Source: a virus. From it: a stretch of 35,904 nucleotides of DNA. Position 1 is the stretch's first letter. Each line of letters begins with the position of its first letter. The DNA is taken from UHGV virus genome UHGV-0042151. One strand, written 5' to 3'. Below the pieces are notes generated by a model that did no database searches, was not told the DNA's origin, and was given only the letters and a program-made list of their open reading frames with translations. Positions 3,611 to 34,925 of this stretch are shown here, one piece after another. A program made the position numbers and the translations under genes.

Positions 3611-3629
3611 AACTTGTTACCTCGGTCTG

Positions 3630-3644
3630 TTACCGTTGAGGTAA
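3630..3644. promoter_or_regulatory. palindromic site TTACC-N5-GGTAA (proximal operator of early-left promoter)
   Basis: TTACCGTTGAGGTAA; lies between -10-like element and ATG 3610. Confidence 0.5.
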
Positions 3645-3672
3645 TAATTATGCGTATATGGTTTGATGTCAA
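3644..3672 (-). promoter_or_regulatory. putative sigma70 promoter of early-left operon
   Basis: Minus-strand -35 TTGACA (3672..3667), 17-bp spacer, -10 AATTAT (3649..3644); flanked by two palindromic sites. Confidence 0.45.
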
Positions 3673-3691
3673 TAGATATGAGTTAAAAAAA

Positions 3692-3706
3692 TTACCCGTT
3701 AGGTAA
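3692..3706. promoter_or_regulatory. palindromic site TTACC-N5-GGTAA (distal operator of early-left promoter)
   Basis: TTACCCGTTAGGTAA; 20 bp upstream of the -35; centre 62 bp from site 3630..3644. Confidence 0.5.
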
Positions 3707-3786
3707 TCGAATAGGCAATAAAAAAGCCCCCCCAAAGCGGCGGTTCTTCTTTAAAAAAAAATTTTTTTTTTTTTTTTTTTTTTTTT

Positions 3787-3883
3787 NNNNNNNNNNNNNN
3801 NNNNNNNNNNNNNNNNNNNNNNNNNNNNNNNNNNNNNNNNNNNNNNNNNNNNNNNNNNNNNNNNNNNNNNNNNNNNNNNNNNN
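3787..3883. other. unresolved sequence (97 N) preceded by A9-T25 homopolymer tract
   Basis: Run of N at 3787-3883; track ORFs spanning it are artefacts (X residues). Confidence 0.95.
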
Positions 3884-3896
3884 GAAAAATATGGTT

Positions 3897-4481
3897 TTAT
3901 TGTTTGTTTTTTTCGTTATGGTTGATGACAAATTCAATGTAACTTTCGATCTTTGCTTTCTCGGTTTCGGGTAACAATGCGTAGCGCGAGCGATCATAGT
4001 TGATGGTCGCAGGGTCGTGCGGGTGAATCAGTAATTCATAGCCGTGACGCCCGAATGCGGATGCAACATTCTCCAGGGTGGAAATGGAAACGCTGACCTC
4101 ATTGTTTAACAGGCGGCTGATTGTCACCTGGGCTACGCCGGATGCGCGGTGAAGTTTTCCCTGTGTTGAAAGGTCGCGGCTTTCGCTCATCCAGCGTTCC
4201 AGGTTGTGAGCCGCCAGCTGGCCAATGTCGCTTGGGCCGACAGGCTGAAAACCTTCCTGAGAAAGCGAGCGATCGATATCAAGCCAGTTACGGGGTTTAT
4301 TGGCGGCAGCTTCAATTTTTCGTGCAACCTGGTCGCCGATAACCTTCTTGCCAAGAGCCCAGCGGTTTACCAGATTTGCCTGAGTTCCAAGTTTTTCAGC
4401 CATCCGCGTCTGAACACCATTGAATTCACGGTCGATCAAGTCGTTGAGATTTTGCCTGCGGACGTCCTGGATACTTTTCAT
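3897..4481 (-). CDS. phage repressor-like protein with two tandem XRE/CI-type HTH domains, no S24 peptidase domain
   Basis: 194 aa; HTH-like segments 'MAEKLGTQANLVNRWALGKK' and 'ASGVAQVTISRLLNNEVSVSISTLENVA'; divergent from Cro-like gene; no Ala-Gly/Ser-Lys autocleavage module seen. Confidence 0.65.
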   Translation of the reverse strand: MKSIQDVRRQNLNDLIDREFNGVQTRMAEKLGTQANLVNRWALGKKVIGDQVARKIEAAANKPRNWLDIDRSLSQEGFQPVGPSDIGQLAAHNLERWMSESRDLSTQGKLHRASGVAQVTISRLLNNEVSVSISTLENVASAFGRHGYELLIHPHDPATINYDRSRYALLPETEKAKIESYIEFVINHNEKNKQ

Positions 4482-4551: not shown

Positions 4552-4635
4552 ATGCACCCCACAGGTAACTATCCTTGATTTTTGTTACCTTATGGGTGAA
4601 TATTTATTATCTGAAATAAATATCAGGCAATAGCT

Positions 4636-4866
4636 ATGAGCGATAACGGACATTTCGATTTCAAAAAGCACTGGCTTGCACTTACTCCGGATGAGCGTGA
4701 AGCCTTCGCACAGGAAGCCGGAACGACGAGTCACTATATCCAGACTCACTTAACAGGTAAGCGCAAAATGCCAGGTAAGGTATTGATGAATGGGCTTTTT
4801 AAAGCCTGTAAAACAAGACAATGGCTGCGCTCAAAAGCAGAATTGGCATACTTCTTCTACTCATGA
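4636..4866 (+). CDS. Cro-like small HTH DNA-binding protein
   Basis: 76 aa, divergent to repressor; 'LTPDEREAFAQEAGTTSHYIQ' HTH-like; ends 24 nt before N-run. Confidence 0.5.
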   Translation: MSDNGHFDFKKHWLALTPDEREAFAQEAGTTSHYIQTHLTGKRKMPGKVLMNGLFKACKTRQWLRSKAELAYFFYS

Positions 4867-4889
4867 TATCCAGCCACAACCCTCTGTAN

Positions 4890-5024
4890 NNNNNNNNNNN
4901 NNNNNNNNNNNNNNNNNNNNNNNNNNNNNNNNNNNNNNNNNNNNNNNNNNNNNNNNNNNNNNNNNNNNNNNNNNNNNNNNNNNNNNNNNNNNNNNNNNNN
5001 NNNNNNNNNNNNNNNNNNNNNNNN
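4890..5024. other. unresolved sequence (135 N)
   Basis: Run of N at 4890-5024. Confidence 0.95.
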
Positions 5025-5046
5025 GGCGGTCTTTTCATATCTATTC

Positions 5047-5061
5047 GTACCTCAAAGGTAA
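5047..5061. promoter_or_regulatory. palindromic site, imperfect (GTACC-N5-GGTAA)
   Basis: GTACCTCAAAGGTAA, 9/10 half-site match; 80 nt upstream of ATG 5142. Confidence 0.35.
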
Positions 5062-5141
5062 TAAAAAACCAAATCTGGTTGATCTTTTTTTTGTGTCAGC
5101 ACAAAATGACCGTAATCCCAATACTAATAACAGGGCTTACC

Positions 5142-6937: not shown

Positions 6938-6974
6938 TACCAGCGCGATAGCGCATTTTTTTACGCCTCGACAA

Positions 6975-6989
6975 TTACCTGTTAGGTAA
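6975..6989. promoter_or_regulatory. palindromic site TTACC-N5-GGTAA (distal operator)
   Basis: TTACCTGTTAGGTAA; 20 bp upstream of -35 at 7009. Confidence 0.5.
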
Positions 6990-7008
6990 TAAAATATTCT
7001 AAAATCTA

Positions 7009-7037
7009 TTGATTTCGTGTCTTATGTGGTTTTTAAT
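7009..7037 (+). promoter_or_regulatory. putative sigma70 promoter inside the early-right region
   Basis: -35 TTGATT (7009-7014), 17-bp spacer, -10 TTTAAT (7032-7037). Confidence 0.45.
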
Positions 7038-7051
7038 TACCTCAGAGGTAA
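7037..7051. promoter_or_regulatory. palindromic site TTACC-N5-GGTAA (proximal operator, overlaps RBS)
   Basis: TTACCTCAGAGGTAA ends 3 nt before ATG 7055; centre 62 bp from site 6975..6989. Confidence 0.5.
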
Positions 7052-7054
7052 ATC

Positions 7055-11889: not shown

Positions 11890-11900
11890 GCATGGTATTA

Positions 11901-11915
11901 TTACCACAACGGTAA
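11901..11915. promoter_or_regulatory. palindromic site TTACC-N5-GGTAA upstream of terminase genes
   Basis: TTACCACAACGGTAA immediately after -10-like TATTAT (11895-11900), 18 nt before ATG 11933. Confidence 0.5.
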
Positions 11916-11932
11916 CAATTACCACGGTGGTT

Positions 11933-12529
11933 ATGATGCCTGCTGAACCTAAAACCTATAAACGCAAATCAACGCAATTTAAGCCGCTCACAGCAATGCA
12001 GGAGGCTTATTGCCAGTCATACATCAAAACGCCTGAAAACCAGACTCAGGCAGCGATTAACGCAGGATTCTCCCCAAATACAGCGGCAGTTAAAGCCAGT
12101 GTCATGATGCGCGATGAACGCATTCAAAAACGGATTGCCGAGTTGATGGAGGAGCGCAACAAACGAATGCGCGTCAGTGCTGATTACGTTCTCATGCGCT
12201 TGGTGGAGATCGACCAGATGGACGTGATCGATATCCTCAACGACGATGGGAGCCTTAAACCAATCCGTGAGTGGCCGAAAATCTGGCGCACTACGCTTAG
12301 TGGCTTTGATCTGTCATCGACCATCATGAACATGAACGAGGATTCGATAGAGACAATCCTCAAAAAAATTAAATGGCCTGACAAGGTGAAGAACCTAGAA
12401 CTGATTGGTAAGCATGTTGATGTCAACGCGTTCAAAGAACGTCTGGATGTTAATGTGAATGTGACAATTGCTGATCGCATAGCAGCAGCCAGGAAGCGAC
12501 TCAAAGAACGTCAGGATGGTAATCAGTGA
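11933..12529 (+). CDS. terminase small subunit
   Basis: 'LTAMQEAYCQSYIKTPENQTQAAINAGFS' matches the conserved terminase-small N-terminal pattern; start set at ATG 11933 (track start 11855 is TTG). Confidence 0.7.
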   Translation: MMPAEPKTYKRKSTQFKPLTAMQEAYCQSYIKTPENQTQAAINAGFSPNTAAVKASVMMRDERIQKRIAELMEERNKRMRVSADYVLMRLVEIDQMDVIDILNDDGSLKPIREWPKIWRTTLSGFDLSSTIMNMNEDSIETILKKIKWPDKVKNLELIGKHVDVNAFKERLDVNVNVTIADRIAAARKRLKERQDGNQ

Positions 12530-14709: not shown

Positions 14710-14786
14710 TGGCGTGGCATGCAGGATTCGAACCTGCGACCAACCGCTTAGAAGGCGGTTGCTCTGTCCAACTGAGCTAATGCCAC
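14710..14786 (-). tRNA. tRNA-Arg (anticodon UCU)
   Basis: Hand-folded cloverleaf: acceptor GTGGCAT/ATGCCAC, D-arm GCTC-AGTTGGACA-GAGC, anticodon arm ACCGC-CTTCTAA-GCGGT, T-arm GCAGG-TTCGAAT-CCTGC, 3' GCCA; similar to but distinct from E. coli argU as recalled. Confidence 0.9.
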
Positions 14787-32635: not shown

Positions 32636-33322
32636 TCAGAAGAACCCAGCCTTGTCGTTGATGTACTCCGCGTGGGTCTGGATATCACGCAGGCATTTGC
32701 TCACACCAACAATGTAGCAGAACATGGTGGTCAGCTCCGCCGCCGCGCCCGATACGTCGTGCCCGTCTTCCTGTAACTGGTTCAGCAGATTCATCAGCAG
32801 TGAGTTCTCCGTCAGGCCGAGAACACCAGACGGAGAATGAATCAGGCTGCGGTAGCCGGGCTTCAGTGGGGCACTGTAGGTTTTGTTCTCTATCTTCATT
32901 GCCTGCATCACTGCTGATGCTGTGGCGTTGGCTACCTGGTCGGCAACTATCTTTATGCGTTCTTCCTGCGGGAGCGAGTTTTTAATGTAACTTCCGGTGC
33001 GGCGGATCTGAGGAAGAACCTCACCTGTAACCCATTTACGAAAGCGGTAGGGGATAGTGCCTGGTGTCACTGCGTCGCGGCAGCGGAGGATCAGTGTGTA
33101 GAGGCCTGACTCGTTGATAATATTGGTTTCACCTTGACGGCCTAAGTTAAATTTAGCCCTTTCATCATCATCAAGAGATTTTATTGACATAGTGGGGTTT
33201 GTCAGTTGAAGAGCTTTAATAACGTCTTTGGCAACAAACCAAGGATTTCCATCAATAACAATGGCTCGAATGGTGGCTTCTGATTCAAAATGAAAAACAG
33301 ATGGGGTTACGTTAGCAGTCAT
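32636..33322 (-). CDS. Bro-N domain antirepressor-like protein
   Basis: N-terminus 'IRAIVIDGNPWFVAKDVIKALQL...GLYTLILR' fits Bro-N; C-terminal domain homologous to the 34473..34730 product; AGGTGA SD then ATG 33322. Confidence 0.65.
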   Translation of the reverse strand: MTANVTPSVFHFESEATIRAIVIDGNPWFVAKDVIKALQLTNPTMSIKSLDDDERAKFNLGRQGETNIINESGLYTLILRCRDAVTPGTIPYRFRKWVTGEVLPQIRRTGSYIKNSLPQEERIKIVADQVANATASAVMQAMKIENKTYSAPLKPGYRSLIHSPSGVLGLTENSLLMNLLNQLQEDGHDVSGAAAELTTMFCYIVGVSKCLRDIQTHAEYINDKAGFF

Positions 33323-33481
33323 AGTGATCACCTTTTAGTATGGTTAATCACCACCTGAGGTGCAAATCTCGTTGGTGGTGAGACGTACAGGGTTTGCACT
33401 ACCGGCTAAAAGGACCCGGCGCACCTTTCGGTGCCCCTGCACGTCCCACCATAATTCTGGCATGACTGTGCTATACGCATA

Positions 33482-33503: not shown

Positions 33504-33593
33504 ATGCGCCTTTTAGTAATCCGGGGTGCAAATCCCGGCACTGGATTTTGCCAGTGCCCGATTACTATGGCACAAGAGGAGTGCGATGTAAAT

Positions 33594-33608
33594 TTACCGA
33601 AAAGGTAA
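33594..33608. promoter_or_regulatory. palindromic site TTACC-N5-GGTAA
   Basis: TTACCGAAAAGGTAA; about 90 bp upstream (minus sense) of the 33482 terminator. Confidence 0.45.
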
Positions 33609-33686
33609 TGATAAGCGCGAAAAAACATTAAAATCAACCGTATTTGGTTGATTGCGTTTAACGCTTGATCACCTGAAAGCAAGATA

Positions 33687-33701
33687 TTACCTTTAAGGTA
33701 A
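33687..33701. promoter_or_regulatory. palindromic site TTACC-N5-GGTAA upstream of 33722 gene
   Basis: TTACCTTTAAGGTAA, 20 nt before ATG 33722, just 5' of GAGGA SD. Confidence 0.5.
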
Positions 33702-33721
33702 TGTTATTGTGAGGAAAAGCA

Positions 33722-34450
33722 ATGGAAGTTTTCTGGATAGTTGTTGGTGTGGTTGCGGTGATTATTTACGTTATCAACCAGAACAAGACTAAGATCTCTG
33801 ATCGTACGGTCGTTAATCAGAACAAAACGATAAAGACCGAAGATGGGGAGATAACGATTAATCGTACACAGGTGATAGAGCACACATCTACTCAGTTTCA
33901 AAAAACTGGAGGTAACGCGCCTGATATTTCCGTACCTCCTGCTTATGATAGTGCGGTAATCCAGACATATTATAAACAGCAGGAGTTAGCAAAAGAGAGG
34001 CAACTGATTCAGCCAAAGCCGTTTACAGCTGAGCTTCCACCTGGAGTGTCAACGCGTCCGGCATATCATGGAAGATTCCCTGGTGATGACATATCGTCTC
34101 AGTCATTTAAAAAAGCACCTCAGGCAGTATCAGAGCCAGCAAGAATATCTTCTGTATCGCCGCCAAAAGAAGAATCAGCTAACAGAGTTTCAAGCGGTAG
34201 CAAGCAGTGCTTGCGATGCAGAATAAACCTTCCATATGAAAAATTCAGGAAATCGTCAAAAAATCCGGATGGATTGACTAAGTGGTGTGCAAGGTGTCTC
34301 GATGGCCCAAAGAATACACGTCATATGAAGTGGTGCCCAATTTGTAATGTCCGCAGAAAACGAACCAGCTTTTACCCTAATAATCAAAATGCGGACGGCT
34401 TAATGGCATGGTGCAAAACGTGCTGGGACGAGCACAAAGCGAAACGATAG
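33722..34450 (+). CDS. membrane-anchored protein with duplicated C-terminal zinc-ribbon (CxxC...WCxxC) modules
   Basis: N-terminal TM helix 'FWIVVGVVAVIIYVI'; 'CLRCRIN...WCARCLD' and 'WCPICNV...WCKTCWD'. Confidence 0.5.
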   Translation: MEVFWIVVGVVAVIIYVINQNKTKISDRTVVNQNKTIKTEDGEITINRTQVIEHTSTQFQKTGGNAPDISVPPAYDSAVIQTYYKQQELAKERQLIQPKPFTAELPPGVSTRPAYHGRFPGDDISSQSFKKAPQAVSEPARISSVSPPKEESANRVSSGSKQCLRCRINLPYEKFRKSSKNPDGLTKWCARCLDGPKNTRHMKWCPICNVRRKRTSFYPNNQNADGLMAWCKTCWDEHKAKR

Positions 34451-34474
34451 GCCGCTCTTGCGGCCTTTAAATTT
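34450..34474. terminator. bidirectional intrinsic terminator between convergent genes
   Basis: GGCCGC-tctt-GCGGCC followed by TTTAAATTT. Confidence 0.5.
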
Positions 34475-34730
34475 ACCGGGTTTGTTTTCGTAATTGTTCG
34501 GCACAATAGTCGAGATGTGTTTGCAGATCCTGCATAGACATCTGTGAGCTGGTGACGTAGTTAATCAGTGCAGTCAGTTCGGCAAGTGGGCCATCGACAT
34601 TAAATCCATCCTTATCGAGATCCCGGAGTAATTTCATCAAGTGCGATCCCTCCACCAGTGACCTGACGCCTCCCGGCGTGTGAATCCTTTCGGTAAATCC
34701 GTCTTCCAGTGGATAGTGATACTGCTGCAT
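34473..34730 (-). CDS. small antirepressor-like protein (85 aa), SOS-regulated
   Basis: GGAGAA SD then ATG 34730; homologous to C-terminal domain of Bro-N protein ('SLVEGSHLMKLLRDLDKDGFNVDGPLAELT' vs 'GLTENSLLMNLLNQLQEDGHDVSGAAAELT'); LexA box 22 nt upstream. Confidence 0.55.
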   Translation of the reverse strand: MQQYHYPLEDGFTERIHTPGGVRSLVEGSHLMKLLRDLDKDGFNVDGPLAELTALINYVTSSQMSMQDLQTHLDYCAEQLRKQTR

Positions 34731-34751
34731 CTTATCTTCTCCATGCAATAA

Positions 34752-34767
34752 CTGTATATTTATACAG
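34752..34767. promoter_or_regulatory. LexA (SOS) box
   Basis: CTGTATATTTATACAG = CTGT-N8-ACAG with AT-rich core; extended AACTGTATATTTATACAGTA matches 18/20 of the consensus TACTGTATATATATACAGTA. Confidence 0.6.
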
Positions 34768-34806
34768 TAGCAAATAATTTGTTTGCTATCCAGCACGTTT
34801 TGCAAA

Positions 34807-34821
34807 TTACCTGAAAGGTAA
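34807..34821. promoter_or_regulatory. palindromic site TTACC-N5-GGTAA between antirepressor and tailspike genes
   Basis: TTACCTGAAAGGTAA. Confidence 0.45.
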
Positions 34822-34925
34822 TATCTATTCGTATTCACAGTCTTTCTATCCATATATGGTTTTTCAGGTAATAGAATAACCAGATATGCGGCGCAACGGG
34901 TGCTGCGACTATCTGGAGATTTAAC

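What the first reader, a model, noticed from the sequence alone, without database searches (positions are those of the whole stretch)
3897..4481. Immunity repressor built from two tandem HTH domains with no peptidase module
The 194-aa protein shows two XRE/CI-like HTH segments (about residues 25-45 and 115-140) and nothing resembling an S24 LexA-type autocleavage domain. A tandem-HTH monomer could read both half-sites of the genome-wide palindrome. The absence of a cleavage module fits the antirepressor-based induction inferred from the LexA box.
Basis: partly seen in the sequence, partly recalled or inferred. Interest (0 to 1): 0.55.

Follow-up and report, generated by a model that had tools for sequence, protein, structure and literature searches.

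The report
Known Rep/Ant-type phage repressor
This gene encodes the lysogeny repressor of a phiV10/epsilon15-like E. coli phage, an orthologue of the crystallised Salmonella phage SPC32H Rep: it does have two helix-turn-helix-fold domains and no self-cleavage domain, but by homology only the first reads DNA, and the protein is switched off by a LexA-controlled antirepressor, so it is ordinary and already described.

Summary
The ORF at 3897-4481 (minus strand, 194 aa) is real and complete.

The protein is known. It is 193/194 identical to the vB_EcoP_ZX5 ORF21 repressor, which was tested by overexpression. It is 41% identical over its full length to SPC32H Rep (PDB 5D50/5D4Z). In papers citing that structure, Rep has an N-terminal DNA-binding domain, a middle dimerisation domain and a C-terminal tetramerisation/Ant-binding domain.

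The window also holds the cognate Ant (85 aa, E 4e-47 to 5D50 Ant) behind a near-consensus LexA box.

The idea that a tandem-HTH monomer reads both half-sites is not supported:
- The operator is a perfect 17-bp dyad, whereas the two HTH domains are unrelated in sequence outside the motif.
- The second HTH is the least conserved part against SPC32H, although both phages share the operator.
- The homologue is reported to bind palindromes as a tetramer through paired N-terminal domains.

Verdict: already known, low interest.

The parts
3897..4481 (-). rep: 194-aa lysogeny repressor (stop codon at 3897-3899)
   Evidence: ORF. PDB 5D50_A Rep E 1.7e-41 over aa 1-190. 41% identity to SPC32H Rep. 193/194 identical to ZX5 ORF21.
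4272..4481 (-). N-terminal DNA-binding domain (aa 1-70), HTH core aa 24-44, putative recognition helix aa 35-43 (ANLVNRWAL)
   Evidence: Pfam YdaS/HTH_3 sub-threshold hits. AF2 helices 4-19, 24-31, 35-43, 50-59. pI 10.3. N36, R40 and W41 invariant in 38 homologues. Called the DBD in the SPC32H homologue.
4236..4271 (-). Flexible linker (aa 71-82)
   Evidence: pLDDT below 50 at aa 75-82. Mean pairwise identity 21% among homologues.
4026..4235 (-). Middle HTH_3-fold domain (aa 83-152), HTH core aa 107-127; inferred dimerisation domain
3900..4025 (-). C-terminal tail (aa 153-194): extended segment, short helix and long helix; inferred tetramerisation and Ant-binding domain (CAD)
   Evidence: AF2 secondary structure. 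Aligned with SPC32H Rep aa 157-196, 45% identity. Function of the CAD as stated in PMC9986798.
4536..4552 (.). Operator in the rep-cro intergenic region, ATTACCCAACAGGTAAA (1 mismatch to the dyad)
   Evidence: The syntenic tripartite arrangement is conserved in 6/6 relatives and in SPC32H.
4553..4569 (.). Weak middle operator TGCACCCCACAGGTAAC (4 mismatches)
   Evidence: Read. The equivalent degenerate site is conserved at the same spacing in relatives.
4584..4600 (.). Weak operator GTTACCTTATGGGTGAA (3 mismatches) overlapping the -35 of the rightward promoter-like site
   Evidence: Read. Promoter-like site at 4582-4610. Conserved in relatives.
4582..4610 (+). PR-like sigma-70 promoter-like site (TTGTTA-17-TATTAT) for the cro-like gene
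   Evidence: consensus match only.
4636..4866 (+). Divergent cro-like gene (76 aa)
   Evidence: phrog_35 'transcriptional repressor', E 5.6e-13. Syntenic with phiV10p41 and SPC32H_042.
3629..3645 (.). Leftward operator overlapping the -10 of the PL-like promoter
3691..3707 (.). Second leftward operator (perfect dyad), 62 bp from the first
   Evidence: The same 62-bp pair occurs in phiV10, SPC32H and the genome loci.
3644..3672 (-). PL-like promoter-like site (TTGACA-17-AATTAT) for the early-left operon
   Evidence: 10/12 match.
34473..34730 (-). ant: 85-aa antirepressor
   Evidence: E 4.1e-47 to 5D50_E 'Anti-repressor protein'. 100% identical to a ZX5 protein annotated as hypothetical.
34750..34769 (.). 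LexA box AACTGTATATTTATACAGTA, 19 nt upstream of the ant start codon
   Evidence: One match against 0.00 expected. Conserved in SPC32H and phiV10.
34806..34822 (.). Perfect operator dyad between ant and the tail-fibre gene
   Evidence: Conserved in SPC32H and phiV10.
32636..33331 (-). Second antirepressor: Bro-N domain fused to an Ant-like C-terminal domain (231 aa)
   Evidence: aa 150-226 match 5D50_E at E 1.1e-13. 82% identical to the ZX5 ORF4 anti-repressor, which lowered lysogeny when overexpressed.
33593..33609 (.). Operator overlapping the -10 of a promoter-like site upstream of the Bro-N/Ant gene
33686..33702 (.). Perfect operator dyad between the Bro-N/Ant operon and a divergent 242-aa gene
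6974..7052 (.). Operator pair (6974-6990 and 7036-7052) 62 bp apart, after the replication genes
   Evidence: Syntenic 62-bp pairs in phiV10 (35069/35131) and SPC32H (35971/36033).

Best explanation
The gene encodes the lysogeny (immunity) repressor of a Uetakevirus (phiV10/epsilon15-like) E. coli prophage. It is an orthologue of Salmonella phage SPC32H Rep and has three modules.

Modules:
1. A basic N-terminal Cro/XRE-type HTH domain (aa 1-70). This is the part that reads DNA.
2. A middle domain (aa 83-152) that keeps the XRE HTH fold and sequence signature but serves as the dimerisation domain.
3. A short C-terminal strand/helix tail (aa 153-194) that joins two dimers into a tetramer and is the docking site for the antirepressor.

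DNA binding. Two identical N-terminal domains, drawn from different dimers of the tetramer, sit on the two symmetric half-sites of each 17-bp operator, ATTACC-N5-GGTAAT. One tetramer can therefore hold two operators. Operators occur as a tripartite set between rep and the cro-like gene. They also occur as pairs 62 bp apart at the early-left promoter and after the replication genes. Single sites or pairs lie in front of most other lytic operons.

Induction. Rep is not cleaved. DNA damage inactivates LexA, which frees the ant promoter. Ant, a tetramer in the homologue, binds the C-terminal tails of two Rep dimers, breaks the tetramer, captures the N-terminal domains and releases the DNA.

What is shown here:
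- homology, domain folds and absence of S24;
- presence of ant with a LexA box;
- operator statistics, positions and conservation.

What is taken from the literature:
- repressor activity, from experiments on the 99.5%-identical ZX5 protein;
- oligomeric state, trans pairing and the mode of Ant action, from work on the 41%-identical SPC32H protein.

What is inferred: that the dyad is this Rep's operator, and that the middle domain does not contact DNA.
For: Identity of the protein:
- Full-length match to the crystallised SPC32H Rep: E 1.7e-41 over aa 1-190 and 41% identity.
- Same genus and synteny as phiV10, SPC32H and ZX5.

Repressor function:
- 193/194 identical to ZX5 ORF21.
- Overexpressing ORF21 removed free phage and cut endolysin and holin transcripts by 99.99% and 99.97% (PMC9782041).

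Domain roles in the homologue:
- DBD, MDD and CAD/tetramerisation-Ant-binding domain (PMC9986798).
- The tetramer binds palindromic sites, each DBD pair comes from different dimers, and an Ant tetramer binds two Rep dimers (PMC9638917; PMC6868357).

Antirepressor and SOS control:
- Ant orthologue, E 4.1e-47.
- LexA box: 1 match against 0.00 expected, conserved with the operator in three phages.
- SOS-made antirepressors acting by protein-protein contact, citing Kim and Ryu 2013 (PMC7380047).

No cleavage module: no S24 hit and no Ala-Gly or Cys-Gly bond (sequence).

Operator:
- 14 sites with at most 2 mismatches against 0.86 expected, and none of 100 shuffles reached 14.
- After annotation transfer, 11 of the 14 lie in the roughly 8% of the window that is non-coding.
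- Sites overlap the PL-like -10 and the PR-like -35.
- The same dyad flanks rep in SPC32H, in phiV10 and in 6/6 bacterial loci whose Rep is 51-74% identical.

Which HTH reads DNA:
- The N-terminal domain has pI 10.3; the rest has pI 6.65.
- SPC32H shares the operator and has a ~90%-identical Ant. Against it, NDD is 54% identical (HTH core 52%), CAD 45%, and MDD 31% (HTH core 24%).
- The two HTH domains show no BLASTP similarity, so they cannot present equivalent heads to a perfect dyad.
Against: - Neither primary SPC32H paper (PNAS 2016, J Virol 2013) could be opened. The domain roles and oligomer model rest on three citing papers and on my recollection of the abstracts.
- No binding, oligomerisation or cleavage data exist for this exact protein. 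The ZX5 work is overexpression only.
- The middle domain keeps a canonical XRE signature, with Q107, Q118 and R123 invariant among 38 homologues. Sequence alone cannot exclude a DNA contact.
- Within the close family the two HTH cores are not very differently conserved (0.71 against 0.59 mean pairwise identity).
- The AF2 model is a monomer with pTM 0.41 and says nothing about assembly.
- That the dyad is Rep's operator, rather than or as well as a site for the Cro-like protein, is inferred from position and co-conservation. It was not tested.
Confidence: 0.85

Rival explanations
1. Rep acts as a single-chain tandem-HTH protein, and each monomer places its N-terminal HTH on one half-site and its second HTH on the other half-site of the 17-bp palindrome.
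For: Both segments are genuine XRE-type HTH folds. The second keeps the canonical Q...Q..I.R signature. The ~23-residue flexible linker could span 11 bp. The ZX5 authors also assumed that the C-terminal HTH 'functions in DNA-binding', on the basis of a CDD hit only.
Against: A perfect two-fold dyad calls for two identical heads related by a dyad. These two domains have no BLASTP similarity and differ in charge. The homologue binds as a tetramer, with N-terminal domains paired across dimers and the middle domain used for dimerisation. The second HTH core is only 24% conserved against SPC32H although the operator is the same.
Confidence: 0.04
2. A hybrid model. The N-terminal domains read the dyads, as in SPC32H. 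The middle HTH-fold domains, besides dimerising, make auxiliary contacts with the DNA between paired operators (for example across the conserved 62-bp spacing) or with a second class of site.
For: Q107, Q118 and R123 are invariant in the middle HTH across 38 homologues. The 62-bp operator pairing is strictly conserved at two loci in every relative examined, which suggests wrapped or looped DNA passing close to the protein core.
Against: The middle and C-terminal part is near-neutral (pI 6.65). SPC32H replaces Q107 with E and Q118 with P. The conserved residues may equally serve the dimer interface. Nothing in the accessible literature reports such a contact.
Confidence: 0.08
3. The protein is not the prophage master repressor. 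It would instead be an XRE-type antitoxin or accessory regulator, as one database record (phage BP9) labels it 'antidote protein VapI'.
For: The BP9 annotation. Pfam's weak 'YdaS_toxin' label for the N-terminal HTH.
Against: There is no adjacent toxin gene. The gene sits in the classical cI position, divergent from a cro-like gene and flanked by operators. The near-identical ZX5 protein shuts off lytic transcription. SPC32H Rep is a characterised repressor.
Confidence: 0.02

Closest known systems
Salmonella phage SPC32H Rep with its antirepressor Ant (PDB 5D50, 5D4Z; Kim & Ryu 2013; Kim et al. 2016)
   Same: Full-length homology (41% identity, E 1.7e-41). Same three-module layout. Same genus (Uetakevirus) and gene position. 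Same ATTACC-N5-GGTAAT dyads at syntenic places. Ant about 90% identical, with a LexA box in its promoter. No S24 domain.
   Different: Rep has diverged, most of all in the middle domain (31% identity). The window phage carries an additional Bro-N/Ant-like fusion antirepressor that SPC32H lacks at that position. OR has one strong and two degenerate sites, whereas SPC32H has three good sites.
E. coli phage vB_EcoP_ZX5 ORF21 repressor and phiV10 gp40
   Same: 193/194 identical to ZX5 ORF21, and about 97% nucleotide identity to phiV10p40. ZX5 ORF21 was shown by overexpression to block the lytic programme. The phiV10 annotation already records two HTH motifs.
   Different: Essentially nothing. This is the same protein in another isolate or prophage.
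Lambda CI, P22 C2 and LexA-type repressors (HTH plus S24 autopeptidase)
   Same: N-terminal XRE-type HTH, 17-bp dyad operators, a tripartite OR divergent from cro, oligomerisation through C-terminal parts, and SOS-responsive induction.
   Different: No S24 domain, no Ala-Gly site and no RecA-stimulated self-cleavage. SOS is sensed indirectly, through LexA control of an antirepressor.
Antirepressor-induced repressors of other phages: 186 CI/Tum, Gifsy and Fels-2 repressors (Lemire et al. 2011), N15 CB/AntC
   Same: The same logic: a non-cleavable repressor inactivated by a small LexA-controlled protein (PMC7380047).
   Different: No homology of either partner to these systems was detected in the searches run here. 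From memory of Kim & Ryu 2013, the SPC32H-type Ant is structurally distinct.
B. subtilis SinR/SinI and plasmid pLS20 Rco/Rap
   Same: XRE HTH followed by an oligomerisation module, a tetramer that bridges DNA sites, and inactivation by a protein antagonist. The Rep C-terminal tail was likened to the Rco/p53 tetramerisation fold. SinR appears among the fold hits.
   Different: Rep has an extra HTH-fold dimerisation domain between the DBD and the tetramerisation tail. There is no close sequence relationship.

Membership tests
SPC32H-type Rep (antirepressor-controlled Uetakevirus repressor) | Full-length sequence homology to SPC32H Rep | tested here: met
   phmmer E 1.7e-41 over aa 1-190 against chain residues 2-197. 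BLASTP 41% identity, E 1e-52.
SPC32H-type Rep (antirepressor-controlled Uetakevirus repressor) | Three-module architecture: N-terminal HTH DBD, middle dimerisation domain, C-terminal tetramerisation/Ant-binding tail | tested here: met
SPC32H-type Rep (antirepressor-controlled Uetakevirus repressor) | Cognate Ant gene in the same genome | tested here: met
   Window 34473-34730, E 4.1e-47 to 5D50_E.
SPC32H-type Rep (antirepressor-controlled Uetakevirus repressor) | LexA box at the ant promoter | tested here: met
   AACTGTATATTTATACAGTA at 34750-34769, 2 mismatches to the consensus, 0.00 expected. Aligned with the SPC32H box.
SPC32H-type Rep (antirepressor-controlled Uetakevirus repressor) | Tetramer on DNA with trans-paired N-terminal domains; disassembly by an Ant tetramer | not testable with these tools
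   Only single-chain prediction is available. Known for the homologue.
SPC32H-type Rep (antirepressor-controlled Uetakevirus repressor) | Not cleaved during the SOS response | not testable with these tools
   Consistent with the absence of an S24 domain and of an Ala-Gly or Cys-Gly site, but cleavage itself needs an experiment.
LexA/lambda CI-type autocleavable repressors | C-terminal Peptidase_S24 domain with a Ser/Lys dyad and an Ala-Gly (or Cys-Gly) cleavage site | tested here: not met
   No PF00717 hit at E<=1 for the whole protein or E<=10 for the pieces. The model is all-alpha apart from a short extended segment. No AG or CG dipeptide.
Single-chain tandem-HTH DNA binders (two HTH units of one chain both contacting one site) | Both HTH units contact DNA; the target is normally an asymmetric bipartite site | tested here: not met
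   The target is a perfect dyad. The two units are dissimilar. The second unit is a dimerisation domain in the homologue. Direct DNA contact could not be tested.
XRE/Cro-C1 HTH superfamily | Five-helix (or four-helix) bundle with helix 2-turn-helix 3 | tested here: met

The most novel reading that the evidence does not exclude
The middle HTH-fold domain is not only a dimerisation scaffold. It would keep a DNA-contact role, for example gripping the DNA between the strictly 62-bp-spaced operator pairs or binding a second site class. Rep would then be a true dual-HTH DNA binder, and the published SPC32H model would be incomplete.
Probability: 0.07. Interest if true: 0.45.

Novelty: already known. 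Interest (0 to 1): 0.12.

Why it matters
It matters little beyond correct annotation. The window carries a textbook-grade example of the SPC32H-type Rep/Ant lysis-lysogeny switch in an E. coli phiV10-like phage. The useful correction concerns the second HTH. Databases, and the ZX5 paper, read it as the DNA-binding part. In the crystallised homologue it is an HTH fold re-used for dimerisation, and the weakly scoring N-terminal HTH is the operator reader. That affects how operators, immunity groups and engineered switches from these phages should be interpreted.

Tried and rejected
- Opening the primary SPC32H papers by DOI and PMC id failed, as did the epsilon15 genome paper. I used three citing papers instead.
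- A literature search for the operator string returned only unrelated papers. A search on epsilon15 operators added nothing.
- I tried to discriminate the DNA-reading HTH by conservation within the close family. Both cores are conserved (0.71 against 0.59), so this alone is not decisive. The comparison with SPC32H was more informative.
- I tested for an internal duplication of the HTH. BLASTP finds nothing. hhalign aligns only 21 motif columns at 17% probability. The two units belong to the same superfamily but are not a recent tandem duplication.
- The antitoxin reading ('VapI', 'YdaS_toxin' labels) was rejected on context and on experiment in ZX5.
- The simple terminator scan found none next to rep. 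Comparison with PAS61 shows that the two N-runs replace the terminator hairpins.
- My greedy ORF map mis-scored three operator sites as coding because of spurious ORFs. I corrected this by annotation transfer from phiV10, ZX5 and PAS61.

Full report
OBSERVATION

The ORF exists exactly as stated. It lies at 3897..4481 on the minus strand, starts with ATG and encodes 194 aa. An N-run at 3787-3883 ends 13 nt past its stop codon and does not touch it.

Pfam places HTH_3 at aa 106-147. The whole protein scores E 1.2e-9 with two matched stretches. Pfam also gives a weak Cro-like HTH (YdaS_toxin) at aa 21-61. When the pieces are scanned separately:
- The N-terminal piece gives YdaS E 4e-4 and HTH_3 E 0.012, both below the gathering score.
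- The middle piece gives HTH_3 at 27.1 bits against a cut-off of 23.
- The last 42 residues match nothing.
- No piece matches Peptidase_S24 even at E<=10.

A profile-profile alignment of the two halves aligns only the HTH cores, aa 24-44 with aa 107-127 (E 0.0014). BLASTP sees no similarity between the halves.

An AlphaFold2 model built on 38 homologues (mean pLDDT 78.5) shows four parts:
- a four-helix bundle at aa 4-59;
- a disordered linker;
- a five-helix bundle at aa 83-151;
- an extended segment, a short helix and a long helix at aa 152-193.

The two-HTH, no-peptidase observation is therefore confirmed, with two qualifications. A third, C-terminal module was overlooked.

WHAT IT IS

The gene is 96-99.5% identical in nucleotides to the repressor genes of phiV10, TL-2011b, PAS61, ZX5 and other E. 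coli Uetakeviruses. The phiV10 annotation already says 'two helix-turn-helix motifs'.

The protein is 193/194 identical to ZX5 ORF21. Overexpressing ORF21 eliminated free phage. It also reduced endolysin and holin transcripts by 99.99% and 99.97% (PMC9782041).

I could not open the two primary SPC32H papers. Three papers that cite them describe the protein as follows:
- Rep has an N-terminal DBD, a middle dimerisation domain (MDD) and a C-terminal domain (CAD). The CAD makes tetramers and binds the antirepressor Ant (PMC9986798).
- Rep binds DNA as a tetramer, and dimers bind weakly. The DBD pair that reads a palindromic site comes from different dimers. An Ant tetramer binds two Rep dimers and breaks the tetramer (PMC9638917; PMC6868357).

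This agrees with my recollection of the abstracts of Kim & Ryu 2013 and Kim et al. 2016, which is own knowledge and was not re-read.

THE REST OF THE SWITCH IS IN THE WINDOW

An 85-aa gene at 34473-34730 (minus strand) matches SPC32H Ant with E 4.1e-47. Nineteen nucleotides upstream of its ATG lies AACTGTATATTTATACAGTA (34750-34769). It is the only near-consensus LexA box in the window, with 0.00 expected by chance. The box, a perfect operator dyad at 34806-34822, the ribosome-binding site and the start codon all align with the SPC32H and phiV10 ant upstream regions.

PMC7380047 summarises the logic for this class. LexA self-cleavage allows synthesis of an antirepressor, which inactivates the repressor by protein-protein contact.

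OPERATORS

ATTACC-N5-GGTAAT with at most 2 mismatches occurs 14 times against 0.86 expected, and none of 100 shuffles reached 14. After correcting a crude ORF map with the phiV10, ZX5 and PAS61 annotations, 11 of the 14 sites lie in the roughly 8% of the window that is non-coding.

Around rep:
- One good and two degenerate sites (4536, 4553, 4584) lie between rep and the cro-like gene. The last overlaps the -35 of a PR-like promoter.
- Two sites 62 bp apart (3629, 3691) lie downstream of rep. The first overlaps the -10 of a PL-like promoter.

The same dyad occupies syntenic positions in SPC32H (18 sites) and phiV10 (15 sites). It also flanks rep in 6/6 bacterial loci whose Rep is 51-74% identical, with the same tripartite OR. 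Five of the six keep the 62-bp OL pair; L008 does not. A second 62-bp pair follows the replication genes in the window, phiV10 and SPC32H.

That this dyad is Rep's operator is an inference from position, geometry and co-conservation.

WHICH HTH READS DNA

Four lines of evidence point to the N-terminal domain:
1. The homologue's domain assignment.
2. Symmetry. A perfect dyad needs two identical heads, and the two HTH domains of one chain are unrelated outside the motif.
3. Charge. The N-terminal domain has pI 10.3 and the remainder pI 6.65.
4. Comparison with SPC32H. That phage has the same operator and a ~90%-identical Ant. The N-terminal domain is 54% identical (HTH core 52%) and the C-terminal tail 45%. 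The middle domain is 31% identical, with an HTH core of 24% and with Q107 replaced by E and Q118 by P.

Within the closer family both cores are conserved (0.71 against 0.59). The middle domain keeps a canonical XRE signature. An auxiliary DNA contact therefore cannot be excluded by sequence alone, and I give it about 8%.

MECHANISM (BEST EXPLANATION, CONFIDENCE 0.85)

- Rep dimerises through the HTH-fold middle domain and tetramerises through the C-terminal tail.
- Pairs of N-terminal domains from different dimers occupy the 17-bp dyads.
- One tetramer can bridge two operators, which would account for the conserved 62-bp pairs.
- Operators in front of most lytic operons make Rep a global silencer of the prophage.
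- DNA damage removes LexA from the ant promoter.
- Ant binds the C-terminal tails, splits the tetramer and sequesters the DNA-binding domains.
- No RecA-stimulated cleavage is involved.

COMPARISON AND NOVELTY

This is a member of the SPC32H Rep/Ant family. Every defining feature that could be tested here was met. It is not a member of the S24 autocleavable family, because the S24 domain was tested for and is absent.

It works like other antirepressor-induced systems (186 Tum, Gifsy, N15). No homology of either partner to those systems turned up in the searches run here. It also resembles SinR/SinI and Rco/Rap in architecture.

The finding is already known and of low interest. Its main value is a correction: the well-scoring second HTH is not the DNA-binding element. 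The ZX5 paper assumed that it was.

Noticed in passing
window 32636-33331 (-), with upstream sites at 33593-33609 and 33686-33702: There is a second antirepressor, a 231-aa Bro-N domain fused to an Ant-like C-terminal domain (E 1e-13 to SPC32H Ant). It is 82% identical to the ZX5 ORF4 'anti-repressor', the one tested experimentally in ZX5. It has no LexA box. An operator dyad overlaps the -10 of its promoter-like site, which suggests it is Rep-repressed. It could act as a positive-feedback latch once the small LexA-controlled Ant has started induction. In ZX5 the small Ant, 100% identical, is annotated only as hypothetical.
   Followed up: partly
window 3629/3691 and 6974/7036; L001 31952/32014 and 35069/35131; L002 33603/33665 and 35971/36033; L003-L007: Operator dyads occur as pairs exactly 62 bp apart, start to start, at two separate loci. 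The spacing is identical in the three phages and, beside rep, in five of the six bacterial relatives examined (L008 lacks it). This fits one Rep tetramer bridging two sites, but it is untested.
   Followed up: partly
window 3787-3883 and 4889-5024: The two N-runs replace rho-independent terminator hairpins, as seen in the 99.5%-identical phage PAS61 (aaaaaagccgcc-ataa-ggcggctt downstream of rep; gaccgccatccggcggtc downstream of the cro-like gene). The bases just before the first run (a long A/T homopolymer and 'gcccccccaaagcggcgg') differ from PAS61 and look like an assembly or masking artefact.
   Followed up: yes
window 11900-11916 and 11918-11934: Two adjacent operator-like dyads lie inside the 5' end of the annotated small-terminase ORF (11855 TTG start; the same in phiV10 at 86-120). 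Either the true start codon is further downstream or Rep sites sit within coding sequence at the head of the late operon.
   Followed up: no
window 33722-34450 (+): A 242-aa ORF with an N-terminal hydrophobic helix and C-terminal CxxC-rich repeats sits between the two antirepressor genes, with a perfect operator dyad 20 bp upstream of its start codon. It was not seen in the phiV10 annotation at this position, so it may be a moron gene. Function unknown.
   Followed up: no
window 5046-5062: An operator-like dyad (2 mismatches) sits just after the (masked) terminator that follows the cro-like gene and about 80 bp upstream of a small zinc-ribbon-like gene (MEIITRIDAAKRG...). It is conserved in phiV10 (33111) and could be a Rep-controlled internal promoter or a roadblock.
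   Followed up: no
window 14710-14786 (-): A tRNA-Arg (anticodon TCT) gene lies in the region between the terminase and head genes. SPC32H also carries a tRNA-Arg there, and ZX5 is reported to carry one tRNA.
   Followed up: no
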